Numbered from the stretch's first letter, positions 1 through 43,688 are shown. The stretch is 64,000 bases of DNA from Raillietiella orientalis (GCA_036172245.1 JAYWIR010000014.1:1-64000), one strand, 5' to 3'. Made by a program: numbers and translations. The notes: generated by a model from the letters alone, not told the origin.

Positions 1-24
1 AAAAAGCTGTAAACAATATTCACT

Positions 25-6000: not shown

Positions 6001-9000
6001 AACTTAATACAACGGATTCTGTTCAGGTGATCAAAGCAGGGAACTTAATCACGGAAACAGTGGAGGGCCATTCTCTACCTCCCTTAGCTGTTGGTGAATT
6101 GTGCGCGAGATTTCTTCATTCAGAGAAAATGCAACATTGATCATCTTTGTTTTTTCTTGCATGTCCGTCGAAATGCAGTATTTGCTCAAAAGGGCGTCAT
6201 CTACATACTGCGTACTTTTGCTTTGTAAAAATAAATCATTTCATAGCGTTGTAGAATGTGGTCTCTTGATTGCATTGAAAAGCATGAAAAGTTTTGAATT
6301 TTCTTCATTCTCAAGGAAACCAGTGTTGCACACCAAAGACGAATCATTGAGATAAATCGTATTTCGGTAACGGAAGATATTTTGGCGTTTTCTTCGAAAT
6401 ATGTTTGACATTGCACAAGCACTTTTCGGTATTATTCGCGTACAAGGAAAGTGATGATGACGACAAAAGAAAAGAAAGGTAAGTGGAAGCCAGAGATTTG
6501 GTAACACAATGGAATATCGTGTCGACTGCTTGAATTGGGGATTGCGGAGGGGACGTAAGACGATATACGCGCTTCGTTTCTGCTGCTGTTCTCATAAAAA
6601 AAAGCTGTAAACAATATTCACTGGAATATAACCTCAATCGGCATCAAGGATGGAAGAATACGTCGAGTTATTTGCAAACACTTCCAAGCATTGTAACATT
6701 TCAACTTCTGATCACTAATGACAACCACAATATAAGGAGTTTGTTAGGATCAGGAGTGCTTACAGAAGGACAAAACAACAGGTTTGCAAATGCATAGATG
6801 ATGCTAATCAAAGTGTACGTTTAGTGGTGTGCAAGGAAAAGCAATTTCTGTTATGGATGAAAAGCATGATGCAGAGCTTTCCAATAAAAATCTCGACACC
6901 ATTTGGGAAAACATTATAGAAAGCAACACCATTGCGATGCTTTGATTGCCGAATTGACATCGAAACGAAATGTGGAACTGGTGCACTAAGCTCAACGCGA
7001 CGCTTGTGCCAATTACATACTGCTGTAACCTCTAATCTAAATTGTATTTGCAAGGTTGGAATTCTTAGAAGTGACATCTTCTGTTTCTTCACGTAGGCAC
7101 CTCAGCACTTCATAACGGATCCAGTTCAAGATGATCAAAGCAGGGAGCAATGCTGCGAACGGAGGAAAACTATTCCTCTTGCTCCATATTGTTCATGATT
7201 CTGGGCGGAATTTTTTCATTCGATTAAATTCACATCTTTAGTAGTCTTGGTTTTTTGTTTAAAGCTTATCGAAATGCGTGTCGCTAAATAGAGTATACAT
7301 CTACATACTGCATACATTTGCTTTCAAAAATTGTGAACTGAAAACAATTGCGTCGCAGAATGTGGTCTCTTGCTTGCTTGTAAAAGCATAAATAGTTTGG
7401 AATTTTATTCATTGTCAAGGAAACCAATGTTCCACACAGGACACCAATCATTGAGATTCACCGTATTTCACAAACGGAAGATATTTTTCATGTGTTTTTG
7501 AAAATATGTTTGACTCAGCAAAAGGTCTTTCAAGTAGAATTCGCTCACATGAAAATCGCCAATGCCGACAATGCAATAGAAAGCAAAGTGGTAACCATAG
7601 ATTCTTTGAAACACTGGAATATCGTGTCAACTGTTTAAGTTTTAGCGTCCTTAAAGGCCAGAAGTCCATATAAGGGGTTCGTTTTTTTTGCTGCTGTCAT
7701 TCAAAGCAGCAGTACACAATACTCACCGGAATATAAATTCAATCGTCGTTAACAAACGAGGAATGCGTCGAGTTATTTGTAAAGACTCGCAAGCAAATTA
7801 ACATTTCAACTTCTGATCACATATGACAACTACGATATACGGAGTTTGTTTGGTTCAGGAGTGCTTAGAGAAGGACAAAACAACAGGTTTACAAATCAAT
7901 AGATAATGCAATTTCAGATTGTACGTTTAGTTGTGTGCACAGGTAAGGAATTTCTGTTTTGGATGAAAGGCATGAAGCAGAGCATAACAAAAAAAAATCC
8001 GGATATTATTCAAGAAACGGATTCTAGAAGGGACCACAATTGGCGATGCTGTGGGTGCCGACTTGACATCGAAACGAAGTGTGCATCTGGTGCACTCACC
8101 TCAACGCGACGCTTGTGACAATTACATACTGCTGTAGCCTCTAGTCGAAATTGTAGTAGCAAGGTTGGAATTCTTAGAAGTGACATCTTCTGTCTCTTCA
8201 CGTAGGCACCTCAGCACTTTTTAACGCATCCAGTTCAAGATGATCAAAGCAGGGAGCTATGCTGCAAACAGAGGAAACCTATTCCTCTTGCTCCATATTG
8301 TTCATGATTCTGGGCGGAATTTTTTCATTCGAGGAAGTTCACATCTTTAGTAGGCTTGGTTTTTTGTTTAAAGCTTATCGAAATGCGTGTCGCTAAATAG
8401 AGTATACATCTACATACTGCATACATTTGCTTTCAAAAATTGTGAATTGAAAACAATTGCGTCGCAGAATGTGGTCTCTTGTTTGCTTGTAAAAGCATAA
8501 ATAGTTTGGAATTTTATTCATTGTCAAGGAATCCAATGTTGCACACCAAAGGAGAATCCTTGAGATTCATCGTATTTCGAAAACGGAAGATATTTTTCAT
8601 GTGTTTTTGAAAATATGTTCCCATCGCGGAAGGGCTTCCGGGTATAATTCATTTACAGGAAAATCGCGTATGCTGACAATCGAAAAGAGAGGAAAGTGGA
8701 AACCAGAGATTTCTAAACACTGGAATAACACGTCAAAAGTTCGAGTGGGTGCGTCTGACCAATCGAAATGAGAATGCAGGGGCTTCGTATCTTTTGCAGT
8801 TCTCATTCAAAAATCTGTACACAATGCTTACTGGAATATAACCTCAATCGGCATCCACGATGGAAGAATGCTTCGGGTTATTTGCAAACATTTGCAAGCA
8901 TTTTAATATTTCAACTTCGGGTCACATGTGACAACTGCGATATACGGAGTTTGTAAGGTTCACGAATGCTGAGAGAAGGACAAAACAACTGGTTTGGAAA

Positions 9001-9934
9001 TCAATAGATGATGCTATTTCCAATTGTACGTTTAGTGGTGTGCAGAGGAAAGGAATTTCTGTTTTGGATGAAAGGCATGAAGCAGAGCATTACAAAAAAA
9101 AAATCCGGATATTATTCAAGAAACGGATAAATAGAACGGACCACAATTGGCGATGCTGCGGGTGCCGACTTGACATCGAAACGCAGTGTGCAACAGTGCA
9201 CCAACCTCAGCGAGACGGTGTGACAATTACCTGCTGAGGTTTGGAAGCTAAATTGTAATGAATGGCTAAGGGACTTAGAAGAGACCTCTTATGTCTACTC
9301 ACGGAGGCATCTCAGCACTTCGCAACGGATTCTGTTCAAGGTGATCAAAGCAGGTAGCAATGCTGGAAACAGTGGAGGGCCATTACTCTACCTCCATATT
9401 GTTGGTGAATTGTGCGCGAGATTTCTTCATTCGAGGAAAGTGACATCTTGAGTCATCTTTGTTTGTTCTTGCATGTCCGTCGAAATGCGTGTTGCTCAAA
9501 AGGGCGTCCATCTACATACTGCGTACTTTTGCCATTGAAAGTGTAAATCTAGAACAATATGAATACCGAGCTAATGTATTCTTGATTGCATTTAACTCTT
9601 TCCATCTCTTTGAATTTTCTTCATCTCAAAGAAACCAGTGTTGCACACAAAAACGAATCATTGAGATAAATCGTATTTCTAGTAACGAATATTTTGGCGT
9701 GTTCTTCGAAATATGTTTGACATTGCACAAGCACTTTTCGGTATTATTCGCGTACAAGGAAAGTGATGATGACGACAAAAGAAAAGAAAGTTAAGTGGAA
9801 GCCAGAGATTCGGTAACACAATGGAATATCGTGTCAACTGCTTGAATTGGGGATTGCGGAGGGGACGAAAGACGATATACGCGCTTCGTTTCTGCTGCTG
9901 TTCTCATAAAAAAAAGCTGTAAACAATATTCACT
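25..9934. repeat. Trimeric higher-order repeat (monomer types A-B-C, ~3.3 kb, 3 copies)
   Basis: Type-A monomers (AGGATGGAAGAATACGTCGAG) start at 25, 3313, 6623 and 9935, giving periods of 3288, 3310 and 3312. Near-identical ORFs occur at 851/4138/7448 and 210/3497. Confidence 0.93.
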
Positions 9935-12128
9935 GGAATATAACCTCAATCGGCCTCAAGGATGGAAGAATACGTCGAGTTATTTGCAAACACTTCCAAG
10001 CATTTTAAGATTTCAACTTCTGATCACTAATGACAACCACAATATAAGGAGTTTGTTAGGTTCAGGAGTGCTTACAGAAGGACAAAACAACAGGTTTGCA
10101 AATGCATAGATGATGCTAATCAAAGTGTACGTTTAGTGGTGTGCAAGGAAAAGCAATTTCTGTTATGGATGAAAAGCATGATGCAGAGCTTTCCAATAAA
10201 AATCTCGACATCATTTGGGAAAACATTATAGAAAGCAACAAGATTGGCGATGCTTTGATTGCCGAATTGACATGGAAACGAAATGTGGAACTGGTGCACT
10301 AAGCTCAACGCGACGCTTGTGACAATTACATACTGCTGTAACCTCTAATCTAAATTGTAGTGGATTGATTACCGTGGCATCTTCTGTCTCTTTACGTGAA
10401 GCCTCTGAAGCACTTCTGTGGATCAGTTCAAGATGATCAAAGCAGGAGCAATGCATGCCAATTGAGGAAAACCTTTTTCTTGCTCCATATTGTTCCTGAT
10501 GATTCTAAACGGATTTTTTCATTCGAGGAAGTTCACATCTTTAGTAGGCTTGGTTTTTTGTTTAAAGCTTATCGAAATGCGTGTCGCTAAATAGAGTATA
10601 CATCTACATACTGCATACATTTGCTTTCAAAAATTGTGAATTGAAAACAATTGCGTCGCAGAATGTGGTCTCTTGTTTGCTTGTAAAAGCATAAATAGTT
10701 TGGAATTTTATTCATTGTCAAGGAATCCAATGTTGCACACCAAAGGAGAATCCTTGAGATTCATCGTATTTCGAAAACGGAAGATATTTTTCATGTGTTT
10801 TTGAAAATATGTTCCCATCGCGGAAGGGCTTCCGGGTATAATTCATTTACAAGAAAATCGCGTATGCCGACAATGGAAAAGAGAGGAAAGTGGAAACCAG
10901 AGATTTCTAAACACTGGAATAACACGTCAAAAGTTCGAGTGGGTGCGTCTGACCAATCGAAATGAGAATACAGGGGCTTCGTATCTTTTGCAGTTCTCAT
11001 TCAAAAATCTGTACACAATGCTTACTGGAATATAACCTCAATCGGCATCAACGATGGAAGATTCCTTTGGGTTATTTGCAAACACTTGCAAGCATTTTAA
11101 TATTTCAACTTAGGGTCACATGTGACAACTGCGATATACGGAGTTTGTTAGGTTCACGAATGCTCAGAGAAGGACAAAACAACTGGTTTGGAAATCAATA
11201 GATGATGCTATTTCCAATTGTACGTTTAGTGGTGTGCAGAGGAAAGGAATTTCTGTTTTGGATGAAAGGCATGAAGCAGAGCATTACAAAAAAAAATCCG
11301 GATATTATTCAAGAAACGGATAAATAGAACGGACCACAATTGGCGATGCTGCGGGTGCCGACTTGACATCGAAACGAAGTGTGCAACTGGTGCACTCACC
11401 TCAACGAGACGATTGTGACGATTGCATGCTGCCTAAACCTCTAAGCTAAATTGTAATAGAATGGTTGGGATTCTTAGAAGAGACCTCTTATGTCTACTCA
11501 CGGAGGCATCTCAGCACTTCGCAACGGATTCTGTTCAAGGTGATCAAAGCAGGTAGCAATGCTGGAAACAGTGGAGGGCCATTACTCTACCTCCATATTG
11601 TTGGTGAATTGTGCGCGAGATTTCTTCATTCGAGGAAAGTGACATCTTGAGTCATCTTTGTTTTTTCTTGCAGGTCCGTCGAAATGCGTGTTGCTCAAAA
11701 GGGCGTCCATCTGCATACTGCGTACTTTTGCTTTGTGAAATTGTAAATCTAGAACAATAGCGTTGTAGAATGTGGTCTCTTGATTGCATTGAAAAGCATA
11801 GTTTGAATTTTCTTCATTCTCAAGAAACCAGTGTTGCACACCCAAGACGAATCATTGAGATAAATCGTATTTCGGTAACAAAATATTTTGGCGTTTTCTT
11901 CGAAATATGTTTGACATTGCACAAGCACTTTTCGGTATTATTCGCGTACAAGGAAAGTGATGATAACGACAAAAGAAAAGAAAGGTAAGTGGAAACCAGA
12001 GATTTGGTAACACAATGGAATATCGTGTCAACTGCTTGAATTGGTGATTGCGGAGGGGACGTAAGACGATATACGCGCTTCGTTTCTGCTGCTGTTCTCA
12101 TAAAAAAAAGCTGTAAACAATATTCACT

Positions 12129-15100
12129 GGAATATAACCTCAATCGGCATCAAGGATGGAAGAATACGTCGAGTTATTTGCAAACACTTCCAAGCATTTT
12201 AACATTTCAACTTCTGATCACTAATGACAACTACAATATAAGGAGTTTGTTAGGTTCAAGAGTTAGCGAAGAAGGACAATATGGAGTTTGCAAATGCATA
12301 GATGATGTTAATCAAAGTGTACGTTTTAATCAAAGTGTACGTTAAGTGGTGTGCAAGGAAAAGAAAGAAAAGCATGAGTTTTCTATGAAGAAGTGAAAAG
12401 CATGATGCAAGAGCTTTCAATAAAGAAATCTCGACATCATTTGGGAAAACATTATAGAAAGCAACACCATGTGATGCTTTGATTACCGAATCAGCATCAA
12501 AGCAATCGTAGAACTAGTGCACTAAGCTCAACGCGACACTTGTGACAATTACATGCTGCTTTATCTAGTCTAAATTGTAGTAGCAAGGTTGGAATTCTTA
12601 GAAGTGACATCTTCTGTCTCTTCACGTAGGCACCTCAGCACTTTTTAACGGATCCAGTTCAAGATGATCAAAGCAGGGAGCAATGCTGCAAACAGAGGAA
12701 ACCTATTTTTCTTGCTCCATATTGTTCATGATTCTGGGCGGAATTTTTTCATTCGAGGAAATTCACATCTTTAGTAGGCTTGGATTTTTGTTTAAAGCTT
12801 ATCGAAATGCGTGTCGCTAAATAGAGTATACATCTACATACTGCATACATTTGCTTTGAAAAAATTGTGAATTGAAAACAATTGCGTCGCAGAATGTGGT
12901 CTCTTTGCTTACTTGTAAAGCATAAATAGTTTGGAATTTTATTCATTGTCAAGGAAACCAATGTTCCACACAGGACACCAATCATTGAGATTCACCGTAT
13001 TTCCCAAACGGAAGATATTTTTCATGTGTTTTTGAAAATATGTTTGACTCAGCAAAAGGGCTTTCAAGTAGAATTCGCTCACATGAAAATCGCCAATGCC
13101 GACAATGCAATAGAAAGCAAAGTGGCAACCATAGATTCTTTGAAACACTGGAATATCGTGTGAACTGTTTAAGTTTGAGCGTCCTTAAAGGCCAGAAGTT
13201 TCTTTAAGGAGTTCGTTTTTCTTTAACTCTCATTCAAAGCAGCAGTACACAATACTCTGGAATATAAATTCAATCGTCGTTAACAAACGGGAATGCGTCA
13301 AAGTCCATTTGTAAAGACTCGCAAGCAAATTAACATTTCAACTTCTGATCACATATGACAAATACGATATACGGAGTTTGTTTGGTTCAGGAGTGCTTAG
13401 AGAAGGACAAAACAACAGGTTTACAAATCAATAGATAATGCTATTTCTAATTGTACGTTTAGTTGTGTGCACAGGTAAGGAATTTCTGTTTTGCATGAAA
13501 GGCATGAAGCAGAGCATTACAAAAAAAAATCCGGATATTATTCAAGAAACGGATTCTAGAAGGGACCACAATTGGCGATGCTGTGGGTGCCGACTTGACA
13601 TCGAAACGAAGTGTGCATCTGGTGCACTCACCTCAACGCGACGCTTGTGACAATTACATACTGCTGTAGCCTCTAGTCTAAATTGTAGTAGCAAGGTTGG
13701 AATTCTTAGAAGTGACATCTTCTGTCTCATCACGTAGGCACCTCAGCACTTCATAACGGATCCAGTTCAAGATGATCAAAGCAGGGAGCAATGCTGCAAA
13801 CAGAGGAAAACTATTCCTCTTGCTCCATATTGTTCATGATTCTGGGCGAAATTTTTTCATTCGAGGAAATTCACATCTTTAGTAGTCTTGGTTTTTTGTT
13901 TAAAGCTTCTCGAAATGCGTGTCGCTAAATAGAGTATACATCTACATACTGCATACATTTGCTTTGGAAAATTGTGAATTGAGAACAATTGCGTTGCAGA
14001 ATGTGGTCTCTTGCTTGCTTGTAAAAGCATAAATAGTTTGGAATTTTATTCATTGTCGAAAGGGCTCCAATATTTTTTCGGAGAATCATAAGATTAGCGT
14101 TTTTTCGAAGCAGAAGATATTTTCATGTGTTTTTGAAAAATATATTTCCCATCATGGAAAACTTCCGTTATATTCTACAAGAAAATCGCGTATGCCGACA
14201 ATGGAAAAAAGAGGAAAGTGGAAACCAGAGATTTCTAAACACTGGAATAACACGTCAAAAGTTCGAGTGGGTGCGTCTGACCAATCGAAATGAGAATACA
14301 GGGGCTTCGTATCTTTTGCAGTTCTCATTCAAAAATCTGTACACAATGCTCAGTGGAATATAACCTCAATCGGCATCAACGATGGAAGAATCCCTCGGGT
14401 TATTTGCAAACACTTGCAAGCATTTTAATATTTCAACTTATGGAAGAATCCCTCGGGTTATTTGCAAACACTTGCAAGCATTTTAATATTTCAACTTCAT
14501 GTCACATGTGACAACTGCGATATACGGAGTTTGTTAGGTTCACGAATGCTCAGAGAATTACAAAACAACTGGTTTGGAAATAGATAGATGATGCTATTTT
14601 TAATTGTACGTTTAATGGTGTGCAAAGGAAATTAATTTCGGTTTTGGATGAAACGCATGGAACAGAGCATTATAGAAAAAATCTTGATATTATTTAAGAA
14701 ACGCATTATGCAAGGGACCACAATTGGCGATGCTGTGGGTGCCCACTTGACATCGAAACGAAGTGTGCAACTGGTGCACTCACCTCAACGAGACGATTGT
14801 GACAATTGCATACTGCTGAAATCTCGAAAGTGAATTGTAATAGAAAAGTTGGGTTTCTTAGAAGAGACCTCTTATGTGTAATCACGTAGGCATTCCTGCA
14901 TTTCACGACGGATTCAGTTCAACATCATCAAAGCAGAGGGCATTGCTGCAAACAGTGGAGAGCTATTCCTTTTCCTCCATATTGTTGGTGAATTTTTCGC
15001 GGAATTTGTCCATTCGAGGAAATTGACATTTTTGGTTGGCTTTGTTTCTTGTTGCAGGCTGATCGAAATGCGTTTTGCTTAAAAGAGTATTTATCTGCAT

Positions 15101-18100
15101 ACTGCTTACCTTTGCTTTGTTAAATTCTGTATTGAGAACAATTATTTCACAGAATGTGGTCTCTTGCTTGCTTGCAAAAGCATGAATAGTTTGAAATTTT
15201 TTTCCTTGTCAAGTAAACTAATGTTGCACACCAAAGATAAGTTCTCTAGATTCATTGAATTTCAGAAAGGGAATACCATTTGCATGTGTTTCGAAATATG
15301 TTTGACAGTGCTTTAGCACTTTTGGGTTTTATTCCCGTACAAGGAAATTGCCGACGCCGACAGTGGAAGAGACAGGTAAGTGGAAACCAGAGATTTCGTA
15401 TCACTTTGGAATATCGTTTCAGCTGCTTAAGTTGGGGTGTACGGACGGGCCGCAAAACAATACACGGCCTTAGTTTCTTCTAATGTTCTCATAAAAAAAG
15501 CTGTGAACAATACTCACTGGGATATAACTTCAATCGGCATCAACGATGGACGGATACGTCGAGTTATTTGGAAACGCTTGCATGCAAATTAACATTTCAA
15601 CTTCTGGTCACTAATCACAACTTCGATATAAATTGTTTGTTCGGTTCAGAAGTGCTTAGAGAAAGACAAAAGAACAGATTTTTAAATGCATAGATTATGC
15701 TAATCAAAGTGTACGTTTAGTGGTGTGCAAGAAAAAGCAATTTCTCTTATGGATAAAAAGCATGATGCAGAGATATCCAATAAAAATCTCGACATCTATT
15801 GGGAAAGCATTTTAGAAAGCAACACCATTGGCGTTGGTTTGGTTGCCGAATTGACATCGAAACGAAATGTGGAACTGGTGCACTAACCTCAACGCGACGC
15901 TTGTGACAATTACATACTGCTGTAACCTCTAATCTGAATTGTAGTAGCAAGGTTGGAATTCTTAGAAGAGACATCTTCTGTCTCTTCACGTAGGCACCTC
16001 AGCAATTCATAACAAATCCAGTTCAAGATGATCAAAGCTGGTAGCAATGCTGCAAACGAAGGTAAACTATTCCTCTTTCTTTATATTGTTAATGACTTCT
16101 GGGCGGAATTTGTTCATTCGAGGAAATTGACATCTTTACTAGGCTTGGTTTCTTGTTGGAGGCTTATCGAAATGAGTGTTGCTAAATAGAGTATACATCT
16201 ACATAGTGCATACATTTGCTTTGAAAAATTGTGAATTGAGAACAATTGCGTTGCAGAATGTGGTCTCTTGCTTGCTTGTAAAAGCATAAATAGTTGGGAA
16301 TTTTATTCATTGTCAAGGAAACCAATGTTGCACACCAAAGGAGAATCCTTGAGATTCATCGTATTTCGGAAACGGAAGATATTTTTCATGTGTTTTTGAA
16401 AATATGTTCCCATCGCGGAAGGGCTTCCGGGCATAATTCATTTTCCAGAAAATCGCGTATGCCGACAATGGAAAAGAGAGGAAAGTGGAAACCAGAGATT
16501 TATGAACACTGGAATAACATGTCAAAAGTTCGAGTGGGTGCGTCTGAACAAGGGAAATGAGAATATAGGGGCTTCGTATCTTTTGCAGTTCTCATTCAAA
16601 AAACTGCACACAATACTCACTGGAATATAACCTCAATCGGCATCAACGATGGAACCCGTCGAGTTATTTGCAAACCCTTGCAAGCATTTTAACATTTCAA
16701 CTTCGAATCACATGTGACAACTGCGATATACGGAGTTTGTTAGGTTCACGAATGCTCAGAGAAGGACAGAACAACAGGTTTCGAAATCAATAGATGATGC
16801 TTTTTCTAGTTGTACGTTTATTGGTGTGCAAAGGAAAGTAATTTCTGTTTTGGATGAAACGCATGGAACAGAGCATTGCAGAAAAAATCCCGACATTATT
16901 TCAGAAACGCATTATAGAGGGGACCATATTTGGCGATGCTGTGGGTGCCCACTTGACATCGAAACGAAGTGTGCAACTGGTGCACTCACCTCAACGAGAC
17001 GATTGTGACAATTGCATACTGCTGAAACCTCTAAGCTAAATTGTAATAGAAAGGTTGGGATTCTTAGAAGAGACCTCTTATGTCTACTCACGTAGGCATC
17101 TCAGCACTTCACAACGGATTCTGTTCAAGATGATCAAAGCAGGGAGCAATGCTGCAAACAGTGGAGAGCCATTCCTCTTCCTCCATATTGTTGGAGAAAT
17201 GTGCGCGGAAATTGTTCATTCGAGGAAATTGACATATTTATTCGGCTTTGTTTTTTGTTGCTGTTTCATCGAAATGCGTGTTGCTCAAAAGAGTATCCAT
17301 CTGCATACTGCATACTTTTGCTCTGTAAAATTGTGAATTGAGGACAATTGTATTGCTGATTGTGGTCTCTTGCTTCATTGCAAAAGTATGAATCGTTTGA
17401 AATTTTATTCATTGTCAAGGAAACCAATGTTCCACACAGGATACCAATCATTGAGATTCACCGTGTTCCACAAACGGAAGATATTTTTCATGTGTTTTTA
17501 AAAATATGTTTGACTCAGCAAAAGGGCTTTCAGGTATAATTCGCTTACATGAAAATCGCCAATGCCGACAATACAAAAGAAAGCAAAGTGGCAACCATAG
17601 ATTTTTTGAAACACTGGAATGTCGTTTCAACTGTTTAAGTTTGAGCGTCATTGAAGACCAGAAGTCCATATAAGGGGTTCGTTGTTTTTGCTGTTCTCAT
17701 GCAAAGCAGCAGTACACAATACTCACCGGAATATAAATTCAATCGTCGTTAACAAACGAGGAATGCGTCGAGTTATTTGTAAAGACTCGCAAGCAAATTA
17801 ACATTTCAACTTCTGATCACATATGACAACTACGATATACGGAGTTTGTTTGGTTCAGGAGTGCTTAGAGAAGGACAAAACAACAGGTTTACAAATCAAT
17901 AGATGATGCTATTTCTAATTCTACCTTTAGTGGTGTGCAGAGGAAAGGAATTTCTGTTTTTAATGAAAGGCATGAAGCAGAGCATTACAAAAAAAATTTC
18001 GATATTATTTAAGAAACGTATTATAGAAGGGACCATAATTGGCGATGCTGTGGGTGCCGACTTGACATCGAAACGCAGTGTGCAACTGGTGCACTAACCT

Positions 18101-21100
18101 CAACGAGACGATTGTGACAATTGCATACTGCTGAAACCTCTAAGCTAAATTGTAATAGAATGGTTGGGATTCTTAGAAGGGACCTCTTATTTCTACTCAC
18201 GGAGGCATCTCAGCACTTCACAACGGATTCTGTTCAAGGTGATCAAAGCAGGGAGCAATGCTGGAAACAGTGGAGGGCCAATACTCTTCCTCCATATTGT
18301 TGGTGAATTGTGCGCGGAATTTTCTTCATTCGAGGAAAGTGACATCTTGAGTCATCTTTGTTTTTTCTTGCAGGTCCGTCCAAATGCGTGTTGCTCAAAA
18401 GGGCTTCCATCTCCATACTGCGTACTTTTGTTTTGTGAAATTGTAAATCTAGAACAATAGCGTTCTAGAATGTGGTCTCTTGATTGCATTGAAAAGAATC
18501 AAAAGTTTTGAATTTTCTTCATTCTCAAGGAAACCAGTGTTGCACACCAAAGACGAATCATTGAGATAAATCGTATTTCGGTAACGGAAGATATTTTGGC
18601 GTGTTCTTCGAAATATGTTTGACATTGCACAAGCACTTTTCGGTATTATTCGCGTACAAGGAAAGTGATGATGACGACAAAAGAAAAGAAAGGTAAGTGG
18701 AAGCCAGAGATTTGGTAACACAATGGAATATCGTGTCAACTGCTTGAATTGGGGATTGCGGAGGGGACGTAAGACGATATACGCGCTTCGTTTCTGCTGC
18801 TGTTCTCATAAAAAAAAGCTGTAAACAATATTCACTGGAATATAACCTCAATCGGCATCAAGGATGGAAGAATACGTCGAGTTATTTGCAAACACTTCCA
18901 AGCATTTTAACATTTCAACTTCTGATCACTAATGACAACTACAATATAAGGAGTTTGTTAGGTTCAGGAGTGCTTACAGAAGGACAAAACAACAGGTTTG
19001 CAAATGCATAGATGATGGTAATCAAAGTGTACGTTTAGTGGTGTGCAAGGAAAAGCAATTTCTGTTATGGATGAAAAGCATGATGCAGAGCTTTCCAATA
19101 AAAATCTCGACATCATTTGGGAAAACATTATAGAAAGCAACACCATTGGCGATGCTTTGATTGCCGAATTGACATCGAAACGAAATGTGGAACTGGTGCA
19201 CTAAGCTCAACGCGACGCTTGTGACAATTACATACTGCTGTAACCTCTAATCTAAATTGTAGTAGCAAGGTTGGAATTCTTAGAAGTGACATCTTCTGTC
19301 TCTTCACGTAGGCACCTCAGCACTTCATAACGGAATCAGTTCAAGATGATCAAATCAGGGAGCAATGCTGCGAACAGAGGAAAACTATTCCTCTTACTCC
19401 ATATTGTTCATGATTCTAAACGGAATTTTTTCATTCGAGGAAATTCACATCTTTAGTAGTCTTGCTTTTTTGTTCAAAGCTTATCGAAATGCGTGTCGCT
19501 AAATAGAGTATACATCTACAAACTCCATACATTTGCTTTGAAAAATTGTGAATTGAAAACAATTGCGTCGCAGAATGTGGTCTCTTGCTTACTTGTAAAA
19601 GCATAAATAGTTTGGAATTTTATTCATTGTCAAGGAAACCAATGTTCCACACAGGACACCAATCATTGAGATTCACCGTATTTCACAAACGGAAGATATT
19701 TTTCATGTATTTTTGAAAATATGTTTGACTCAGCAAAAGGGCTTTCACGTATAATTCGCTAACATGAAAATCGCCAATGCCGACAATGCAATAGAAAGCA
19801 AAGTGGCAACCATAGATTTTTTGAAACACTGGAATATCGTGTCAACTGTTTAAGTTTGAGCGTCCTTAAAGGCCAGAAGTTTATTTAAGGAGTTCGTTTT
19901 TTTTGCTGCTCTCATTCAAAGCAGCAGTACACAATACTCACCGGAATATAAATTCAATCGTCGTTAACAAACGAGGAATGCGTCGAGTTATTTGTAAAGA
20001 CTCGCAAGCAAATTAACATTTCAACTTCTGATCACATATGACAACTACAATATACGGAATTTGTTTGGTTCAGGAGTGCTTAGAGAAGGACAAAACAACA
20101 GGTTTACAAATCAATAGATAATGCTATTTCTAATTGTACGTTTAGATGTGTGCACAGGTAAGGATTTTCCGTTTTGCATGAAAGGCATGAAGCAGAGCAT
20201 TACAAAAAAAAATCCCGATTTTATTCAAGAAACGGATTATAGAAGGGACCACAATTGGCGATGCTGTGGGTGCCGACTTGACATCGAAACGAAGTGTGCA
20301 TCTGGTGCACTCACCTCAACGCGACGCTTGTGACAATTACATACTGCTGTAGCCTCTAGTCTAAATTGTAGTAGCAAGGTTGGAATTCTTAGAAGTGACA
20401 TCTTCTGTCTCTTCACGTAGGCACCTCAGCACTTCATAACGGATCCAGTTCAAGATGATCAAAGCAGGGAGCAATGCTGCAAACAGAGGAAAACTATTCC
20501 TCTTGCTCCATATTGTTCATGATTCTGGGCGAAATTTTTTCATTCGAGGAAATTCACATCTTTAGTAGTCTTGGTTTTTTGTTTAAAGCTTCTCGAAATG
20601 CGTGTCGCTAAATAGAGTATACATCTACATACTGCATACATTTGGTTTGGAAAATTGTGAATTGAGAACAATTGCGTTGCAGAATGTGGTCTCTTGCTTG
20701 CTTGTAAAAGCATAAATAGTTGGGAATTTTATTCATTGTCAAGGAAACCAATGTTGCACACCAAAGGAGAATCCTTGAGATTCATCGTTTTTCGAAAACG
20801 GAAGATATTTTTCATGTGTTTTTGAAAATATGTTCCCATCGAGGAAGGGCTTCCGGTTGTGATTCATTTACAAGAAAATCGCGTATGCCGACAATGGAAA
20901 AGAGAGGAAAGTGGAAACCAGAGATTTCTAAACACTGGAATAACACGTCAAAAGTTCAAGTGGGTGCGTCTGACCAATCGAAATAAGAATATACGGGCTT
21001 CGTATTTTTTGCAGTTCTCATTCAAAAAACTGTACACAATACTCAGTGGAATATAACCTCAATCGGCATCAACGATGGAAGAATCCCTCGGGTTATTTGC

Positions 21101-24100
21101 AAACACTTGCAAGCATTTTAATATTTCAACTTCATGTCACATGTGACAACTGCGATATACGGAGTTTGTTAGGTTCACGAATGCTCAGAGAATTACAAAA
21201 CAACTGGTTTGGAAATAGATAGATGATGCTATTTCCAATTGTACGTTTAATGGTGTGCAAAGGAAATTAATTTCGGTTTTGGATGAAACGCATGGAACAG
21301 AGCATTAAAGAAAAAATCCTGATATTATTTAAGAAACGCATTATGCAAGGGACCACAATTGGCGATGCTGTGGGTGCCCACTTGACATCGAAACGAAGTG
21401 TGCAACTGGTGCACTCACCTCAACGAGACGATTGTGACAATTGCATACTGCTGAAATCTCGAAAGTGAATTGTAATAGAAAAGTTGGGTTTCTTAGAAGA
21501 GACCTCTTATGTGTAATCACGTAGGCATTCCTGCATTTCACGACGGATTCAGTTCAACATCATCAAAGCAGAGGGCATTGCTGCAAACAGTGGAGAGCTA
21601 TTCCTTTTCCTCCATATTGTTGGTGAATTTTTCGCGGAATTTGTCCATTCGAGGAAATTGACATTTTTGGTTGGCTTTGTTTCTTGTTGCAGGCTGATCG
21701 AAATGCGTTTTGCTTAAAAGAGTATTTATCTGCATACTGCTTACCTTTGCTTTGTTAAATTCTGTATTGAGAACAATTATTTCACAGAATGTGGTCTCTT
21801 GCTTGCTTGCAAAAGCATGAATAGTTTGAAATTTTTTTCCTTGTCAAGTAAACTAATGTTGCACACCAAAGATAAGTTCTCTAGATTCATTGAATTTCAG
21901 AAAGGGAATACCATTTGCATGTGTTTCGAAATATGTTTGACAGTGCTTTTGCACTTTTGGGTTTTATTCCCGTACAAGGAAATTGCCGACGCCGACAATG
22001 GAAGAGACAGCTAAGTGGAAACCAGAGATTTCGTATCACTTTGGAATATCGTTTCAGCTGCTTAAGTTGGGGTGTACGGACGGGCCGCAAAACAATACAC
22101 GGCCTTAGTTTCTTCTAATGTTCTCATAAAAAAAGCTGTGAACAATACTCACTGGGATATAACTTCAATCGGCATCAACGATGGACGGATACGTCGAGTT
22201 ATTTGGAAACGCTTGCATGCAAATTAACATTTCAACTTCTGGTCACTAATCACAACTTCGATATAAATTGTTTGTTCGGTTCAGAAGTGCTTAGAGAAAG
22301 ACAAAAGAACAGATTTTTAAATGCATAGATTATGCTAATCAAAGTGTACGTTTAGTGGTGTGCAAGAAAAAGCAATTTCTCTTATGGATAAAAAGCATGA
22401 TGCAGAGATATCCAATAAAAATCTCGACATCTATTGGGAAAGCATTTTAGAAAGCAACACCATTGGCGTTGGTTTGGTTGCCGAATTGACATCGAAACGA
22501 AATGTGGAACTGGTGCACTAACCTCAACGCGACGCTTGTGACAATTACATACTGCTGTAACCTCTAATCTGAATTGTAGTAGCAAGGTTGGAATTCTTAG
22601 AAGAGACATCTTCTGTCTCTTCACGTAGGCACCTCAGCAATTCATAACAAATCCAGTTCAAGATGATCAAAGCTGGTAGCAATGCTGCAAACGAAGGTAA
22701 ACTATTCCTCTTTCTTTATATTGTTAATGACTTCTGGGCGGAATTTGTTCATTCGAGGAAATTGACATCTTTACTAGGCTTGGTTTCTTGTTGGAGGCTT
22801 ATCGAAATGAGTGTTGCTAAATAGAGTATACATCTACATAGTGCATACATTTGCTTTGAAAAATTGTGAATTGAGAACAATTGCGTTGCAGAATGTGGTC
22901 TCTTGCTTGCTTGTAAAAGCATAAATAGTTGGGAATTTTATTCATTGTCAAGGAAACCAATGTTGCACACCAAAGGAGAATCCTTGAGATTCATCGTATT
23001 TCGGAAACGGAAGATATTTTTCATGTGTTTTTGAAAATATGTTCCCATCGCGGAAGGGCTTCCGGGCATAATTCATTTTCCAGAAAATCGCGTATGCCGA
23101 CAATGGAAAAGAGAGGAAAGTGGAAACCAGAGATTTATGAACACTGGAATAACATGTCAAAAGTTCGAGTGGGTGCGTCTGACCAAGGGAAATGAGAATA
23201 TAGGGGCTTCGTATCTTTTGCAGTTCTCATTCAAAAAACTGCACACAATACTCACTGGAATATAACCTCAATCGGCATCAACGATGGAACCCGTCGAGTT
23301 ATTTGCAAACCCTTGCAAGCATTTTAACATTTCAACTTCGAATCACATGTGACAACTGCGATATACGGAGTTTGTTAGGTTCACGAATGCTCAGAGAAGG
23401 ACAGAACAACAGGTTTCGAAATCAATAGATGATGCTTTTTCTAGTTGTACGTTTAGTGGTGTGCAAAGGAAAGTAATTTCTGTTTTGGATGAAACGCATG
23501 GAACAGAGCATTGCAGAAAAAATCCCGACATTATTTCAGAAACGCATTATAGAGGGGACCATATTTGGCGATGCTGTGGGTGCCCACTTGACATCGAAAC
23601 GAAGTGTGCAACTGGTGCACTCACCTCAACGAGACGATTGTGACAATTGCATACTGCTGAAACCTCTAAGCTAAATTGTAATAGAAAGGTTGGGATTCTT
23701 AGAAGAGACCTCTTATGTCTACTCACGTAGGCATCTCAGCACTTCACAACGGATTCTGTTCAAGATGATCAAAGCAGGGAGCAATGCTGCAAACAGTGGA
23801 GAGCCATTCCTCTTCCTCCATATTGTTGGAGAAATGTGCGCGGAAATTGTTCATTCGAGGAAATTGACATATTTATTCGGCTTTGTTTTTTGTTGCTGTT
23901 TCATCGAAATGCGTGTTGCTCAAAAGAGTATCCATCTGCATACTGCATACTTTTGCTTTGTAAAATTGTGAATTGAGGACAATTGTATTGCTGATTGTGG
24001 TCTCTTGCTTGATTGCAAAAGTATGAATCGTTTGAAATTTTATTCATTGTCAAGGAAACCAATGTTCCACACAGGATACCAATCATTGAGATTCACCGTG

Positions 24101-24700
24101 TTCCACAAACGGAAGATATTTTTCATGTGTTTTTGAAAATATGTTTGACTCAGCAAAAGGGCTTTCAGTTATAATTCGCTTACATGAAAATCGCCAATGC
24201 CGACAATACAAAAGAAAGCAAAGTGGCAACCATAGATTTTTTGAAACACTGGAATATCGTTTCAACTGTTTAAGTTTGAGCGTCATTGAAGACCAGAAGT
24301 CCATATAAGGGGTTCGTTGTTTTTGCTGTTCTCATGCAAAGCAGCAGTACACAATACTCACCGGAATATAAATTCAATCGTCGTTAACAAACGAGGAATG
24401 CGTCGAGTTATTTGTAAAGACTCGCAAGCAAATTAACATTTCAACTTCTGATCACATATGACAACTACGATATACGGAGTTTGTTTGGTTCAGGAGTGCT
24501 TAGAGAAAAACAAAACAACAGGTTTACAAATCAATAGATGATGCTATTTATAATTCTACCTTTAGTGGTGTGCAGAGGAAAGGAATTTCTGTTTTTAATG
24601 AAAGGCATGAAGCAGAGCATTACAAAAAAAATTTCGATATTATTTAAGAAACGTATTATAGAAGGGACCATAATTGGCGATGCTGTGGGTGCCAACTTGA
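12129..24700. repeat. Hexameric higher-order repeat (A-B-D-E-F-G, 6,635 bp, ~2 copies)
   Basis: There is an exact 6,635 offset between anchors 15519/22154, 16622/23257 and 17728/24363. The same offset holds for ORF pairs 14648/21283, 15252/21887, 15747/22382, 16294/22929, 17055/23690, 17448/24083 and 17903/24538. Confidence 0.95.
14382..14497 (+). repeat. Perfect 58-bp tandem duplication inside one monomer
   Basis: ATGGAAGAATCCCTCGGG...ATTTCAACTT occurs at 14382-14439 and again at 14440-14497. This monomer is 1,164 bp, versus 1,106 bp for its hexamer partner at 21048. Confidence 0.95.
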
Positions 24701-26297
24701 CATCGAAACGAAGTGTGCAACTGGTGCACTCACCTCAGCGAGACGACTGTGACAATTGCATACTGCTGAAATCTCGAAAGTGAATTGTAATAGAAAGTTT
24801 GGTATTCCTAGAAGAGACCTGTTATGTGTAATCACGTAGGCATTCCTGCATTTCACGACGGATTCAGTTCAACATCAGCAAAGCAGAGAGCATTGCTGCA
24901 AACAGTGGAGAGCCATTCCTTTTTCTCCATATTGTTGGTGAATTGTGCGCGGAATTTGTTCATTCGAGGAAATTGACATATTTGGTTGGCTTTGTTTTTT
25001 GTTGCAGGCTCATCGAAATGCGTGTCGCTCAAAAGAGTATTTATCTGCATACTGTTTACCTTTGCTTTGTTAAATTCTGTATTAAGGACAATCATTTTAC
25101 AGAATGTGGTCTCTTGCTTGCTTGCAAAAGCATGAATAGTTTGAAATTTTTTTCCTTGTCAAGTAAACTAATGTTGCACACCAAAGATAAGTTCTTGAGA
25201 TTCATCGAATTTCAGAAACGGAATACCATTTCGCATGTGTTTCGAAATATGTTTGACAGTGCTTTAGCACTTTTGGGTTTTATTCGCGTACAAGGAAATT
25301 GCCGACGCCGACAATGGAAGAGACAGCTAAGTGGAAACCAGAGATTTCGTATCACTTTGGAATATCGTTCCAGCTGCTTAAGTTGGGACGTCCGGACAGG
25401 CCGTGAAACAATACGCGGGCTTTGTTGCTTTTAATGTTCTCATAAAAAATGCTGTAAACAATACTCACTGGAATATAACTTCAATCGGCATCAACGATGA
25501 ACGGATATGTCGAGTTATTTGGAAACGCTTGCAAGCAAATTAACATTTCAACTTCTGATCAATGTGACAACTGCGATGTAGGGAGTTGGACAGGTTTAGG
25601 AGTGCTTATAGAAGGACAAAACAACAGCTTTGCAAATCCATAGGTGATGCTTATCCAAAGTGTTCGTTTAGTGGTTTGCAAAGAAAAGCAATTTCTGTTA
25701 TGGATGAACGTTATGATGTAGAGCATTACGAGAAAACTCGCGTCATTGTTTGAGAAACTTATTCTAGAAAGGACCTCTATTGGTTATGCAGTGGGTGCCG
25801 AATTGACATCTAAACGAAATGTGCAACTGGTGCACACACCTCAACGAGACGCTTGTGACAATTACATACTGTTGAAATCTCGAAAGTGAATTGAAGTAGC
25901 AAGGTTGGTATTCTGAAAAGGGACTTCTTATGTCTAATCACGTAGGCATTTCTGCAGTTCACAACGGACTCAGTTTAAGATGATCAAAGCAGAGAGCAAT
26001 GCTGCTAACAGTGGAGAGCCATTCCTCTTCCTCCATATTTTTGGGTTATTTTGCACGGAATTTGTTCATTCGAGGAAATTGACATCTTTAGTCGGCTTTG
26101 TTTTTTGTTGCGGGCTCATCGAAATGCGTGTTGCTCAAAAGAGTATCCATCTGCATACTGCATACTTTTGCTTTGTAAAATTGTGTATTGAGAACAACTG
26201 CGTTGCAGACTATGGTTTGTTATTTGCTTGCAAAAGCGTGAATAGTTTGAAATTTCTTTCCTTGTCAAGGAAACCAATGTTGCACACCAAAGATTAA
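24364..26297 (+). pseudogene. Decayed LRR-like coding frame within the array monomer (best preserved in the terminal units)
   Basis: The frame from 24364 runs through the whole 1,107-bp monomer with only 6 stops. It gives RIIEGTIIGDAVGANLTSKRSVQLVH and RKLTYLVGFVFCCRLIEMRVAQ. The last unit (ORF 25980-26297) gives FVKLCIENNCVADYGLLFACKSVNSLKFLSLS, which fits LxxLxLxxNxIxDxGLxxLxxxxxxLxxLxL. Confidence 0.5.
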
Positions 26298-28419
26298 TCA
26301 TTGAGATTCATCGTGTTTCACAAACGGAAGATATTTTTCTTGCGTTTTTTGAAATATGTTTGATACTGCGGAAGGTCTTTCGGGTTTAGTTCACTTACAA
26401 GAAAATTGCCGATGCCGGCAATGCAAAAGAGAGGAAATTGGAAGCCAGAGATTTTTGAACACTGGAATAACATGTCAAGAGTTCGAGTAAGAGGGTCTGA
26501 AGAAGCAAAAAGAGGATACTGGGGCTCCGTTTATTTTGCTGTTCTTATTCAAAAAAGCTGTACACAATACTCATTGGAATATAAATTCAATCGGCATTAA
26601 CAAAGGAAGAATACGTCCAGTTGGATTAACATGGATAGAGCAAGCTTATCAAGAAACCTTTTATGATGCTGTCCGGCCTCTATATTGATTGTATCACCTA
26701 TTTTACGAACTTTGACGCACTCTGTATCGTTGAGATTCAAGAAAATTGCAATAACTAACGAAATCGGCTTAAGTTCTAGGATGCAAAAGAACGATCTTTT
26801 TTTGCATGCCACTCAAACATAAGCATGCATGCAAGGCAAACCAATTACTATGTGGATTACAGATTTCGTTCTCTTTCTACGATCGAGCCTAAGCGGAGAC
26901 GAGCAAGTAAAAGCACATGGCGACTGCATGTTTTTGGTAATTTTAAGACTGCGATGATGCATACTAAAAGTCACGATAGTTCTGGGTAGAAAATGACTGG
27001 AGGGGACTCACTGTTTCGAAAAAGCAAACTCACGTGTATGTCAGGAATGTTCACTGTACATTCGATTGTGTAGTGGTAGTTGCTCACTTGTGCACCTCTT
27101 GAAACACAGTGAATCACGGTTGCTCAATACACTTATTCTGAACACCTTTAGGAAGTTTACGTGCTCCAAATGAAAAGGAATACTTTTAAATCAATTCAGT
27201 TGACATTTTTGGTAACATTTAGGGTGTACCATCTGATGTCGCCTGGAATCTTACAAACAATATGAGAGAAGATTGTGCGGTTTTGTATTTCAAAATGGTG
27301 CACAGTGCCGCACTGCTATCCACCTGAAGGTTGTTTGGTATGAGAACTTTTTCCCTTGTCATTAAAACAGTCGTATCCATGGTGAGGAGAACACGCGAGA
27401 ATGCCTTCAATCATTCATTTCTTTTTTTGAAAACACACCCTCGTGTACAGAATCAAGAGCTTTGGAGAAAAATGCGTAAGCATCTAATTAGTCATTCATT
27501 TTTGTGCGGCAACATTACCTTATCAATGCGTTTTACTTCCATGCGAGATTACTGCCTGCGTTCTTTACTTTTAAAATTTGTAAAGCATGCTCTTTTCATT
27601 CATCGTTAGTGTCAACTCAAAATGTAATGAATGAATGTCTGCTGTGTACCACAAACACTTTTGAATCGAAAAAGATGGACATTTCGTTCATACCCAAGCA
27701 TCAGCAGAAAATCCACGTACGTGATTTCCAGCGAAGAGATTTCCATTCTATTTTAAATTAGTTCTCCGTATCCTGCTGCAAATGCAACGAGCGTATTAAA
27801 ACTTTTACGTGATTCAGGTGTCAGTTATCCACTAATGTTGCATTCAGAATAATTCTGAACAGCAGCCGATAAGAGTAGATTCCGAAGATGGTTTCGCATA
27901 CATTCTTTTCCGCATGTCACTCAATTATCCGTTTCCAAGGATAAAATTTGTTCAAATGTAGTTTTCAAGACCTGCCTTTTTCTGGGAACGCAGTGAGCGA
28001 GACACACTCAACGGAATCGCTATTCTTTGCAACTGTTGAAAATGGTACATGCTTTGGAGTTGCCAATTTGCGATCTTCGAAAACGAGCATTATGGAAGTA
28101 GGATAAGAGCAGATTTTCTATCTTGCATGAACATTTATGTTGCGTTCTGTTTGGACATACGGAGGTCAATTCGAACGCTTGGTTGTAGTTGTGTGTTTTC
28201 AACTTTAAGTTTACCTGGTTTCGAAGATTTGTGCATTTTCTGCGCACTTTGGTAATCATAGAAAGCATGCGACACGCATTTCACATCTGGGATGTCCTAT
28301 TCAGCTTACCTGAAATTTTTGAGAAATAGAGGTGTGTATCCAATCAGTTTTCTTGAATTTGTTCATCCCTTTTGTGGGATCAATGTTCGCTATAGAAATT
28401 GAGGAGAATTGCGGTTAGT

Positions 28420-42715: not shown

Positions 42716-43688
42716 ATGAAAGCTGTTTATTGCCAGAGCCCATATTGCCAGAGACGACAAATTTTGAAGTTACTTGCATCAAGAGTTGCAAATTCTAGTT
42801 CATGTTCTTCTGCACAAATGCTAGCATTGACACGAGCAAGAACTGGCTTCATAACTGAAACTTCACAATGCTTAGAACTGATTAGAAAATTAGTTCAAAA
42901 GAAAATTAACCAAGAGATCGACAGCATCATTAAGAAGTATCTAGAGGTTAGTAAAGCTTTCATAAATTAATTGCAAATGTAGATTTGCAGACGTATTTCA
43001 AAATGGGAATTGAAAATATATGCCAAAACAATGGCAGGAATGCAGTTTCAGATGAACACATTCATGCTGTATGTCGTCAAATTTTGGAGGATGCCAAAAA
43101 ACTATACCCTATTAAAGAAGTATCACTGGTATCCAATGTATATGAAATGAACAATGACCAGATAAAAAAACATCCAAATGATTGGATTTCTTTGTCAAAG
43201 ATGAAAGAACAAAGTCAAGAGGAACCATCACGACCAAAGCATGGCATTCTAGAACAAACAAGTCAAATTTGCAGCCCTAATGAGGCTGCAAGTTGGCAAT
43301 CATGTTCAAAGGGGTACATAAATAAAATATATGGATCTTTCTTTGTTACTAATCATAAGTAAGTGAAAAGTTGGACTCAGTTCAGATAGACAAGGCACTG
43401 TAATGATGTTTCAGAGCATGTCAGTTTCTGCCAATTGTTCAAGATGCTCCCATATTTCGATATCAGTGTGATTTTGAAGATCAAGAATGGTTAATACAGC
43501 AACAGTTAATGATGCCAACTGAATCCTCAGTGCAACTGTTGTTAGTAGATGAAGTACTTCACCTAGAAGGAGCTGAGGAAGCTTGCCAAAGTTTACAAGG
43601 ATTTCTAGTACCTCAATTTCTGGAAGATAAAATGAGGAAATCACTTCAACTCTACCAGAACGTGGACACAAATCCTGTTCCCTGGTAA
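42716..43688 (+). CDS. DNTTIP1: Deoxynucleotidyltransferase terminal-interacting protein 1 (MiDAC subunit), 3 exons: 42716-42946, 42991-43358, 43415-43688
   Basis: Dimerisation domain CLELIRKLVQKKINQEIDSIIKKYLE|TYFKMGIENI..SDEHIHAVCRQILEDAKKLY. C-terminal domain IFRYQCDFEDQEWLIQQQLMMPT..GFLVPQFLEDKMRK. GT-AG introns of 44 and 56 nt keep the frame. The start codon is uncertain. Confidence 0.85.

What the first reader, a model, noticed from the sequence alone, without database searches (positions are those of the whole stretch)
24364..26297. The satellite monomer looks like an amplified, decayed leucine-rich-repeat gene
Seen: the 1,107-bp unit at 24363-25469 reads in one + frame that closes in register on the next unit. 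It has only 6 stops in 369 codons (24385, 24415, 24535, 24781, 24829, 25432); my rough expectation for AT-rich non-coding DNA is about 20 or more. Four of these are sense codons in other monomers (CAA, CAA, TAC, TGC), leaving about two shared stops. Peptides fit LRR consensus: FVKLCIENNCVADYGLLFACKSVNSLKFLSLS, IIEGTTIGDAVGADLTSKRSVQLV, RKLTSLVGFVFCCGLIEMRV, QLLITYDNYDIRSLLG. Inference: either a protein-coding LRR segment turned into satellite DNA, or this is a reservoir of LRR cassettes. This is the best candidate here for something undescribed, but it rests on motif matching by eye.
Basis: partly seen in the sequence, partly recalled or inferred. Interest (0 to 1): 0.75.

Follow-up and report, generated by a model that had tools for sequence, protein, structure and literature searches.

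The report
Satellite built from decayed LRR gene
A 1.1-kb tandem repeat in this animal genome is the worn-down remnant of an amplified protein-coding sequence whose best-preserved part resembles the leucine-rich-repeat region of the spliceosome protein U2A', a tidy but not unprecedented example of a gene turning into satellite DNA.

Summary
Window 1-26622 is a head-to-tail array of 24 units of about 1.1 kb, in seven monomer types arranged as higher-order repeats. The homologous frame has 5-13 stops in every unit, and the consensus of the types has only 4.

The LRR reading is supported for one block of about 80 codons. Translations of three monomer types and two profiles each find U2 snRNP A' (LRR3-5 plus LRR cap) as best match among solved structures (best E 2.4e-4). 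Control frames give only unrelated hits (E 0.54-2.2). Pfam gives only sub-threshold LRR_9 hits. The rest of the unit matches nothing. AlphaFold gives no confident fold.

Every unit now carries stops and most carry frameshifts. In the U2A'-like block alone, old (between-type) substitutions favour third codon positions (32/22/56, p=0.0002); recent ones do not (57/51/56).

Best reading: a protein-coding, U2A'-like sequence was amplified in tandem, stayed under protein-level constraint for a time, then decayed into a satellite. A "reservoir of LRR cassettes" is not supported.

An earlier scan note (e1-7593496) describes a 1.1-kb satellite elsewhere in this genome. I could not link it to this one.

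The parts
1..26622 (+). Tandem array of 24 units of about 1.1 kb, plus a 24-bp partial unit at the left edge and a 47-bp partial unit at the right end. It runs off the left end of the window. There are seven monomer types: A (m1, 4, 7, 12, 18), B (m2, 5, 8, 13, 19), C (m3, 6, 9, 11, 17), D (m14, 20, 23), E (m10, 15, 21), F (m16, 22) and G (m24). The order is ABC x3, then E C A B D E F C A B D E F D G.
   Evidence: Self-BLAST, unit boundaries, identity matrix 71-100%, tree.
24363..25469 (+). The frame from 24364 has 6 stops in 369 codons.
25470..26575 (+). Unit m24 (type G), the last full unit.
25012..25227 (+). This is the in-register part of the block used for the codon-position tests.
   Evidence: Mapped from the PDB alignments. 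Codon-position bias.
26142..26351 (+). U2A'-like block in m24. Residues 32-101 of the translation of 26049-26369 align to U2A' residues 79-147.
   Evidence: E 0.0029, 21.3 bits.
8377..8613 (+). Best-preserved U2A'-like block, in unit m8 (type B). Residues 24-102 of the translation of 8308-8832 align to U2A' residues 71-148 (LRRs plus LRR cap). Pfam LRR_9 positions 68-149 of 175.
   Evidence: E 2.4e-4, 24 bits; the top five hits are all U2A'; LRR_9 E 0.0086.
24535..24537 (+). In-frame TAG (codon 58), present in 24 of 24 units. Possibly the original stop codon of the ancestral ORF (inference).
24781..24783 (+). In-frame TGA/TAA (codon 140), present in 20 of 24 units. Possibly the stop upstream of the ancestral ORF start (inference).
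24832..25434 (+). Longest open stretch in the array (200 codons, stop to stop). It spans the U2A'-like block of m23.

Best explanation
The 1.1-kb unit descends from a protein-coding sequence that was amplified head to tail and then decayed.

Shown:
- The array and its higher-order structure.
- A frame that is stop-poor over the whole unit in the ancestral consensus.
- A block of about 80 codons homologous to LRR3-5 plus the LRR cap of U2 snRNP A'-type proteins (Pfam LRR_9).
- Present-day stops in all units, and indels in 23 of 24 units that nearly always shift the frame.
- A coding-like excess of third-position changes on the old, between-type branches of that block only.

Inferred:
- The founder unit carried an open reading frame. 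One possibility is an ORF of about 286 codons running from just after the shared stop at codon 140, through the unit junction, to the TAG at codon 58.
- Copies, or their donor, were under protein-level constraint while the monomer types diverged.
- The copies then died. They now evolve as ordinary satellite DNA, by unequal crossing-over that creates and copies blocks of 3 and 6 units.
- No present protein function is expected.
For: Array and higher-order repeats. For example m15/m21 are 100% identical, m16/m22 99%, m14/m20 97% and m1/m4/m7 97-98%, while different types are 71-88% identical.

Stop depletion:
- 6 stops against 21 +/- 4, with 0 of 1,000 shuffles as low in any frame.
- 5-13 in-register stops in all 24 units.
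- 4 stops in the consensus, against 12-23 in the other five frames. Outside the U2A'-like block the count is 3 stops in 262 codons, against 7 and 17 in the other + phases.

Homology: five of five candidate-frame queries that include the block find U2A' chains as best PDB hits.
- Profile A2: E 0.0079.
- m8: E 2.4e-4, with the top five hits all U2A'.
- m15: E 0.079, the only hits.
- Profile A3: E 0.002.
- m24: E 0.0029.
- I predicted that the majority (+1) reading after position 864 would extend the match. Adding those 11 codons raised the score from 18.6 to 24 bits.
- Pfam LRR_9 is the only recurring family: 1/7, 1/16 and 4/12 proteins.

Controls: three other frames of the same DNA against PDB gave best E 0.54-2.2, all unrelated proteins. 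None of 22 control-frame proteins against Pfam gave an LRR hit.

Past constraint, in codons 217-288:
- Diversity among the seven types is 0.162/0.108/0.233 at codon positions 1/2/3, p=0.0009.
- Base or CpG context does not explain it, p=0.0015.
- Parsimony counts are 32/22/56 on between-type branches (p=0.0002) and 57/51/56 within types (p=0.83).
- pN/pS is 0.50, against 0.64-1.18 in the five control frames.
Against: - The similarity is weak in absolute terms. The best score is 24 bits, about 27% identity over 79 residues. Pfam LRR_9 stays below its curated cut-off (16.1 against 30.5 bits).
- A chance Pfam hit of similar strength turned up in a control frame (Spore_permease, E 0.02).
- A profile search of 1.84 billion representative proteins found nothing at E<=0.001. 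Three word-based searches found nothing.
- The parts of the unit that should match the N-terminal LRRs and the C-terminal half of U2A' match nothing (and the single stretches). They also show no codon-position bias. A full-length U2A' copy is therefore not shown.
- AlphaFold gives no confident fold.
- Over the whole unit, dN/dS (0.74) is within the range of control frames (0.77-0.92).
- Codon 239, inside the block, is a stop in 19/24 units. On the whole-unit tree, my own parsimony reasoning places that stop at the root; no script tested this. It fits badly with early constraint unless this site has a different history, for example by gene conversion.
- The codon-position test covered 6-7 regions. 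The block result survives Bonferroni correction (about 0.003), but the block was chosen because its protein signal survives, which could bias it slightly.
Confidence: 0.72

Rival explanations
1. Chimeric unit. Only the block of about 240 bp comes from a U2A'-like gene, for example a captured exon or a 5'-truncated retrocopy. The rest of the unit comes from something else, such as flanking DNA, another ORF or an unrecognised transposable element. The third-position bias in the block would then come from repeated gene conversion by the functional parent gene, not from selection on the array copies.
For: Homology and codon-position bias are both confined to codons of about 217-300. The N-terminal LRR region of U2A', which I recall as being as conserved as the matched part, finds nothing.
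Against: The same frame is stop-poor outside the block too: 3 stops in 262 consensus codons, against 7 and 17 in the other + phases. A random flank would not do that. No transposon or other Pfam domain was found in any of the six frames. Between-type pN in the block is 0.13, which is high for alleles copied from a conserved spliceosomal gene.
Confidence: 0.2
2. No coding ancestry. The stop-poor frame and the U2A' and LRR_9 matches are chance products of a leucine- and phenylalanine-rich translation of AT-rich satellite DNA.
For: All scores are low and below curated thresholds. One control frame gave a Pfam hit at E 0.02. Nothing was found in the large protein libraries. No fold was predicted.
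Against: 0 of 1,000 shuffles reach the observed stop count. Five of five block-containing queries return the same protein as best hit, while three control frames return unrelated proteins at E>=0.54 (against 68-70). A frame extension predicted from the homology raised the score. An independent signal, 3-periodic old substitutions, coincides with the same block and the same frame.
Confidence: 0.07
3. Living gene family or cassette store. The array still supplies LRR coding segments, either as expressed multi-copy genes or as donors for gene conversion into a functional LRR gene.
For: Past protein-level constraint in the block. The array continues beyond the window, so intact copies elsewhere cannot be excluded.
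Against: None of the 24 units is open: each has 5-13 in-register stops and 23 of 24 have indels. Recent substitutions are even across codon positions (57/51/56 in the block, 288/296/284 overall). No related sequence lies in the remaining 37 kb of the window.
Confidence: 0.04

Closest known systems
U2 snRNP A' (SNRPA1 / U2A'; Pfam LRR_9, SDS22-like LRRs with a C-terminal LRR cap)
   Same: The block aligns, with a single one-residue gap, to U2A' residues 71-148. The asparagine ladder positions ('NN'), the 'RNP' of the cap and the hydrophobic pattern after it are in register. Pfam places the block at LRR_9 positions 68-149 of 175.
   Different: Only about 80 of the 255 residues of the full-length solved chain (5xjc_o) are matched. 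The N-terminal LRRs and the C-terminal half are not detectable. Scores are below Pfam's cut-off. All copies are broken. Orthology to U2A' itself, as opposed to another LRR_9-type protein, is not established.
D4Z4 macrosatellite with the DUX4 retrogene (human)
   Same: A kilobase-scale tandem repeat in which each unit derives from a copy of a protein-coding gene. In passages I read in PMC3465993, DUX4 is described as a processed pseudogene of DUXC sitting in 3.3-kb D4Z4 units.
   Different: Per the same passages of PMC3465993, the last D4Z4 unit encodes the DUX4 protein. Here every unit seen is dead. A retrocopy origin is not shown. The unit is three times shorter.
Ampliconic tandem gene families that decay or turn regulatory, such as Stellate / Suppressor of Stellate in Drosophila (recalled, not looked up here)
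   Same: A paralogue of a housekeeping protein gene amplified in tandem, with copies that diverge into subfamilies and degenerate.
   Different: No evidence here for expression, small RNAs, sex linkage or genetic conflict. Nothing of that was testable.
Long-monomer satellite DNAs with higher-order repeats
   Same: Head-to-tail units, monomer types 71-88% identical to each other, blocks of 3 and 6 units copied at 97-100% identity, and neutral recent evolution.
   Different: In the passages I read of the review PMC5615363, the named seeds of satellites are rDNA spacers and transposable elements. A spliceosomal-type LRR coding sequence as seed is not among them.

Membership tests
Pfam LRR_9 / U2 snRNP A'-type LRR domain | Match to the family profile at or above the curated gathering score | tested here: not met
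   Best 16.1 bits (E 0.0086) against a cut-off of 30.5. LRR_9 hit 1/7, 1/16 and 4/12 candidate-frame proteins.
Pfam LRR_9 / U2 snRNP A'-type LRR domain | Significant, specific sequence similarity to a solved member over consecutive LRRs and the LRR cap | tested here: met
   U2A' chains are the best PDB hits for 5 of 5 block-containing queries, best E 2.4e-4. Three control frames gave E>=0.54 with unrelated proteins.
Pfam LRR_9 / U2 snRNP A'-type LRR domain | Colinear match to the whole protein (N-terminal LRRs, C-terminal region) | tested here: not met
   Codons 141-216 gave 0 PDB hits. The junction-spanning C-terminal piece gave no U2A' hit. All hits had a single matched stretch.
Pfam LRR_9 / U2 snRNP A'-type LRR domain | Curved solenoid fold | tested here: inconclusive
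   AlphaFold2 mean pLDDT 26.6 (whole unit, 16-row alignment) and 33.5 (block, 12 rows). No residue reached 50. No fold search was run on such models.
Pfam LRR_9 / U2 snRNP A'-type LRR domain | Open reading frame | tested here: not met
   5-13 in-register stops in each of 24 units and indels in 23 of 24.
Satellite DNA with higher-order repeats | Head-to-tail units without spacers, several monomer types, and multi-unit blocks more alike than neighbouring units | tested here: met
   Tandem 'goes back' joints also appear in contigs of an independent run.
Satellite DNA with higher-order repeats | High copy number in the genome | not testable with these tools
   No whole genome is held. The window shows at least 24 units and the array runs off its left end.
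Retrogene-derived macrosatellite (D4Z4 type) | Intronless copy of a spliced parent gene, with a poly(A) remnant and target-site duplications | not testable with these tools
   The parent gene is not available. There is only a short A-run at 24623-24630 that varies in length between units, which is not diagnostic.
Transposon-derived satellite | Unit matches a transposase, RT or other TE protein domain | tested here: not met
   No TE domain at E<=10. All three + frames were scanned for 7 type representatives, and 8 - strand frames for 3 units.

The most novel reading that the evidence does not exclude
The array is the decayed edge of a lineage-specific, tandemly amplified family of U2A'-like LRR genes that was functional for a substantial time, as the third-position bias on old branches suggests. 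Intact or transcribed copies would survive elsewhere in the array. The family would either encode a fast-evolving germline protein or feed small RNAs that act on the spliceosomal parent gene, which would be an arthropod analogue of Stellate/Su(Ste)-type conflict loci built from a core splicing factor.
Probability: 0.08. Interest if true: 0.7.

Novelty: new member of a known kind. Interest (0 to 1): 0.4.

Why it matters
The origin of a satellite family can rarely be traced, because monomers diverge fast. Here a 1.1-kb satellite still carries three traces of a protein-coding past:
- a frame that is stop-poor over the whole unit;
- a recognisable LRR and LRR-cap block of the U2A' type;
- a fossil signature of purifying selection on its oldest branches.

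That makes it a usable case for studying how an amplified gene becomes satellite DNA, and for dating when constraint was lost. It is not a new kind of element. Gene- and retrogene-derived tandem arrays are known, and nothing suggests a present function.

Tried and rejected
- Whole-genome search for a parent gene: no genome is held for this window.
- tblastn of unit translations against the rest of the window (26623-64000): only chance hits, E>=0.62.
- Word-based homologue searches with the read-through unit, profile A2 and profile A3: nothing.
- Profile search of 1.84 billion representative proteins: 0 hits at E<=0.001.
- ESM Atlas with the 200-residue open stretch and with the 82-residue block: no usable hit.
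- AlphaFold2 on both alignments: pLDDT 26.6 and 33.5, unusable, so no fold search was run.
- A first fragment alignment (A1, 94 rows) was misaligned and dropped.
- Rfam on the whole window: no family.
- Sequencing runs: one DNA run (X1) with a small share of words. No RNA holder is listed, so expression stays untested. Laid at 80% likeness, X1's contigs carry 80-95% similar variants with tandem joints. This shows that the repeat exists in another data set and nothing more.
- Internal sub-repeats in the unit that could mimic periodicity: none of note.
By-sequence look-ups did not link the two satellites.
- Literature: 'satellite DNA' with 'SNRPA1' gave one unrelated paper. Two broader searches gave reviews but no U2A'-derived satellite. 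These three searches are the basis for saying I found no report.
- By-eye matches of other parts of the unit to U2A' as I recall it: considered, but no tool supported them, so they are not used.

Full report
**What is there.** It holds 24 full units of 1,086-1,154 bp (mostly 1,105-1,106), a 24-bp partial unit at the window's left edge and a 47-bp partial unit at the right end. The array therefore continues beyond the window. The units fall into seven types (A-G). Types are 71-88% identical to each other and 89-100% identical within a type. The order is ABC three times, then E C A B D E F C A B D E F D G. Recently copied blocks are evident: m14-m16 against m20-m22 are 97%, 100% and 99% identical. 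Tandem Repeats Finder misses the array because its longest period is 500.

The DNA to the right of the array carries ordinary animal genes: a kringle domain, DNTTIP1, ribosomal protein L23a, a phospholipase A2 and a nuclear receptor. No whole genome is held for this window.

**The observation.**
The other five frames have 16-23 stops.
- In 1,000 dinucleotide-preserving shuffles the mean was 21 +/- 4 stops, and none had 6 or fewer in any frame.
- Codon-position base composition is only weakly uneven (p=0.07) and cannot explain the deficit.
- When every unit is read in register with this one, all 24 have 5-13 stops, against 11-22 and 18-27 in the other + phases.
- Only codon 58 (TAG, 24/24), codon 140 (20/24) and codon 239 (19/24) are widely shared stops.
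- The consensus of the seven type consensuses has 4 stops in 369 codons, against 12-23 in the other five frames. Three of the four lie outside the block discussed below, so the whole unit is ORF-like, not just one part.
- 'Closing in register' is a property of this one 1,107-bp unit. The others differ from it by indels, nearly always frameshifting.

**Is it LRR?** Single translations gave little against Pfam. One of seven type representatives gave LRR_9 at E 0.037.

A profile of in-register translations (A2) searched against all solved-structure sequences returned U2 snRNP A' as the two best hits (E 0.0079 and 0.02). Profile positions 220-280 aligned to U2A' 74-134.

The natural-frame translation of type-B unit m8 (8308-8832) then scored 24 bits, E 2.4e-4. 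Its top five hits were all U2A' entries, and the alignment ran through the LRR cap to U2A' residue 148. Further queries agreed:
- Type E (m15) found only U2A' (E 0.079).
- A 12-row profile of the block found U2A' in the top five places (E 0.002).
- Pfam LRR_9 hit 4 of those 12 rows and was the only family hit (best E 0.0086, profile positions 68-149 of 175).

**Controls.** The two other + frames and one - frame of the same 525 bp gave only unrelated proteins at E 0.54-2.2. Twenty-two control-frame translations gave no LRR hit against Pfam. One did give a chance hit at E 0.02 (Spore_permease), so the Pfam values alone would not carry the case.

**What is not matched.**
- Codons 141-216, where the N-terminal LRRs of a full-length U2A' would lie, found nothing in the PDB.
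- A piece spanning the unit junction, where the C-terminal half would lie, found only unrelated weak hits.
- The large protein libraries gave nothing, nor did the ESM Atlas.
- AlphaFold2 gave no confident structure for the unit or the block (pLDDT 26.6 and 33.5).
- No transposon domain appears in any frame scanned. No related sequence lies in the rest of the window.

What is established is a block of about 80 codons of U2A'-type LRR plus cap inside an ORF-like unit. A full-length U2A' copy is not established. Orthology to U2A' itself, rather than to another LRR_9-type protein, is also open.

**Selection.** By region the picture changes.
- In the in-register part of the U2A'-like block (codons 217-288, 25012-25227 in m23), diversity among the seven types is 0.162/0.108/0.233 at codon positions 1/2/3 (p=0.0009). 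No other region shows this.
- Base and CpG context predict 0.194/0.173/0.186, so context does not explain it (residual p=0.0015).
- On a FastTree tree with parsimony, changes on between-type branches in the block are 32/22/56 (p=0.0002). Changes within types are 57/51/56 (p=0.83). Over the whole unit the within-type counts are 288/296/284.
- pN/pS in the block is 0.50, against 0.64-1.18 in the control frames.

Old divergence in this block therefore looks protein-constrained, and recent divergence looks neutral.

Caveats:
- Six to seven regions were tested. The result survives correction at about 0.003.
- The block was chosen because its protein signal survives.
- Concerted evolution blurs any tree of satellite units.
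- Codon 239 inside the block is a stop in 19/24 units. By my own parsimony reasoning, not run as a script, it sits at the root of the whole-unit tree.
- The block is not more conserved overall than the rest of the unit (0.171 against 0.193; 37% of equally long blocks are as low).

**Most likely history.**
1. A protein-coding sequence containing a U2A'-type LRR and cap domain was duplicated in tandem. It may have been a complete small gene or retrocopy. An ORF from just after the shared stop at codon 140, through the junction, to the universal TAG at codon 58 would be 286 codons (inference).
2. While the monomer types separated, the LRR block was still under protein-level constraint. That constraint acted either in the copies themselves or, through gene conversion, in a functional donor gene (inference).
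3. All copies seen here then accumulated stops and frameshifts. They now evolve as a satellite with higher-order repeats (shown).

**Comparison and novelty.** Kilobase-unit tandem arrays built from gene copies are known. In passages I read in PMC3465993, DUX4 in the 3.3-kb D4Z4 units is described as a processed pseudogene of DUXC. Stellate/Su(Ste)-type arrays are a recalled parallel. In the passages I read of the satellite review PMC5615363, the named seeds are rDNA spacers and transposable elements. Three literature searches found no satellite traced to U2A'/SNRPA1. This is a new member of a known kind.

It may be the same family, but by-sequence look-ups did not connect them. No transposase signal exists here.

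**Expression and distribution.** One coded DNA run holds 80-95% similar variants with tandem joints. No RNA holder was listed, so expression remains untested.

Noticed in passing
window 14382-14497: A perfect 58-bp tandem duplication (2.0 copies, 100% match) sits at the junction of units m13 and m14. It accounts for the over-long unit m13 (1,154 bp).
   Followed up: partly
window 14413-17727 and 21048-24362: A three-unit block (types D, E, F) is repeated 6.6 kb downstream at 97%, 100% and 99% identity. The next units (m17/m23, m18/m24) are only 86% and 81% alike. This is a recent segmental copy within the old array.
   Followed up: partly
window 28000-30200: A GC-rich island (48% GC against about 38% around it) has three overlapping stop-free stretches of 124-204 codons on the - strand. 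Two of the three were scanned and gave no Pfam hit at E<=0.001. The window has no Rfam hit. Possibly an unclassified repeat.
   Followed up: partly
window 33808-34155 (-), 42955-43362 (+), 43730-44152 (-), 59268-59852 (+), 61950-62898 (-): Exons of ordinary animal genes flank the array: a kringle domain, the DNTTIP1 dimerisation domain, ribosomal protein L23a, a phospholipase A2, and a nuclear receptor with zf-C4 and ligand-binding domains (RXR/USP-like by my reading). The satellite therefore abuts gene-bearing DNA.
   Followed up: partly
window 50688-51434: An earlier scan note (e1-7513033) reports a decayed Wolbachia-like DNA scrap here. I did not re-test it. I took it only as a hint that the host is an arthropod or nematode.
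   Followed up: no
another piece of the same genome (note e1-7593496): A second report describes a 1.1-kb higher-order satellite whose origin was left open (a piggyBac claim failed). It would be worth testing that satellite for the U2A'-like block found here.
   Followed up: partly
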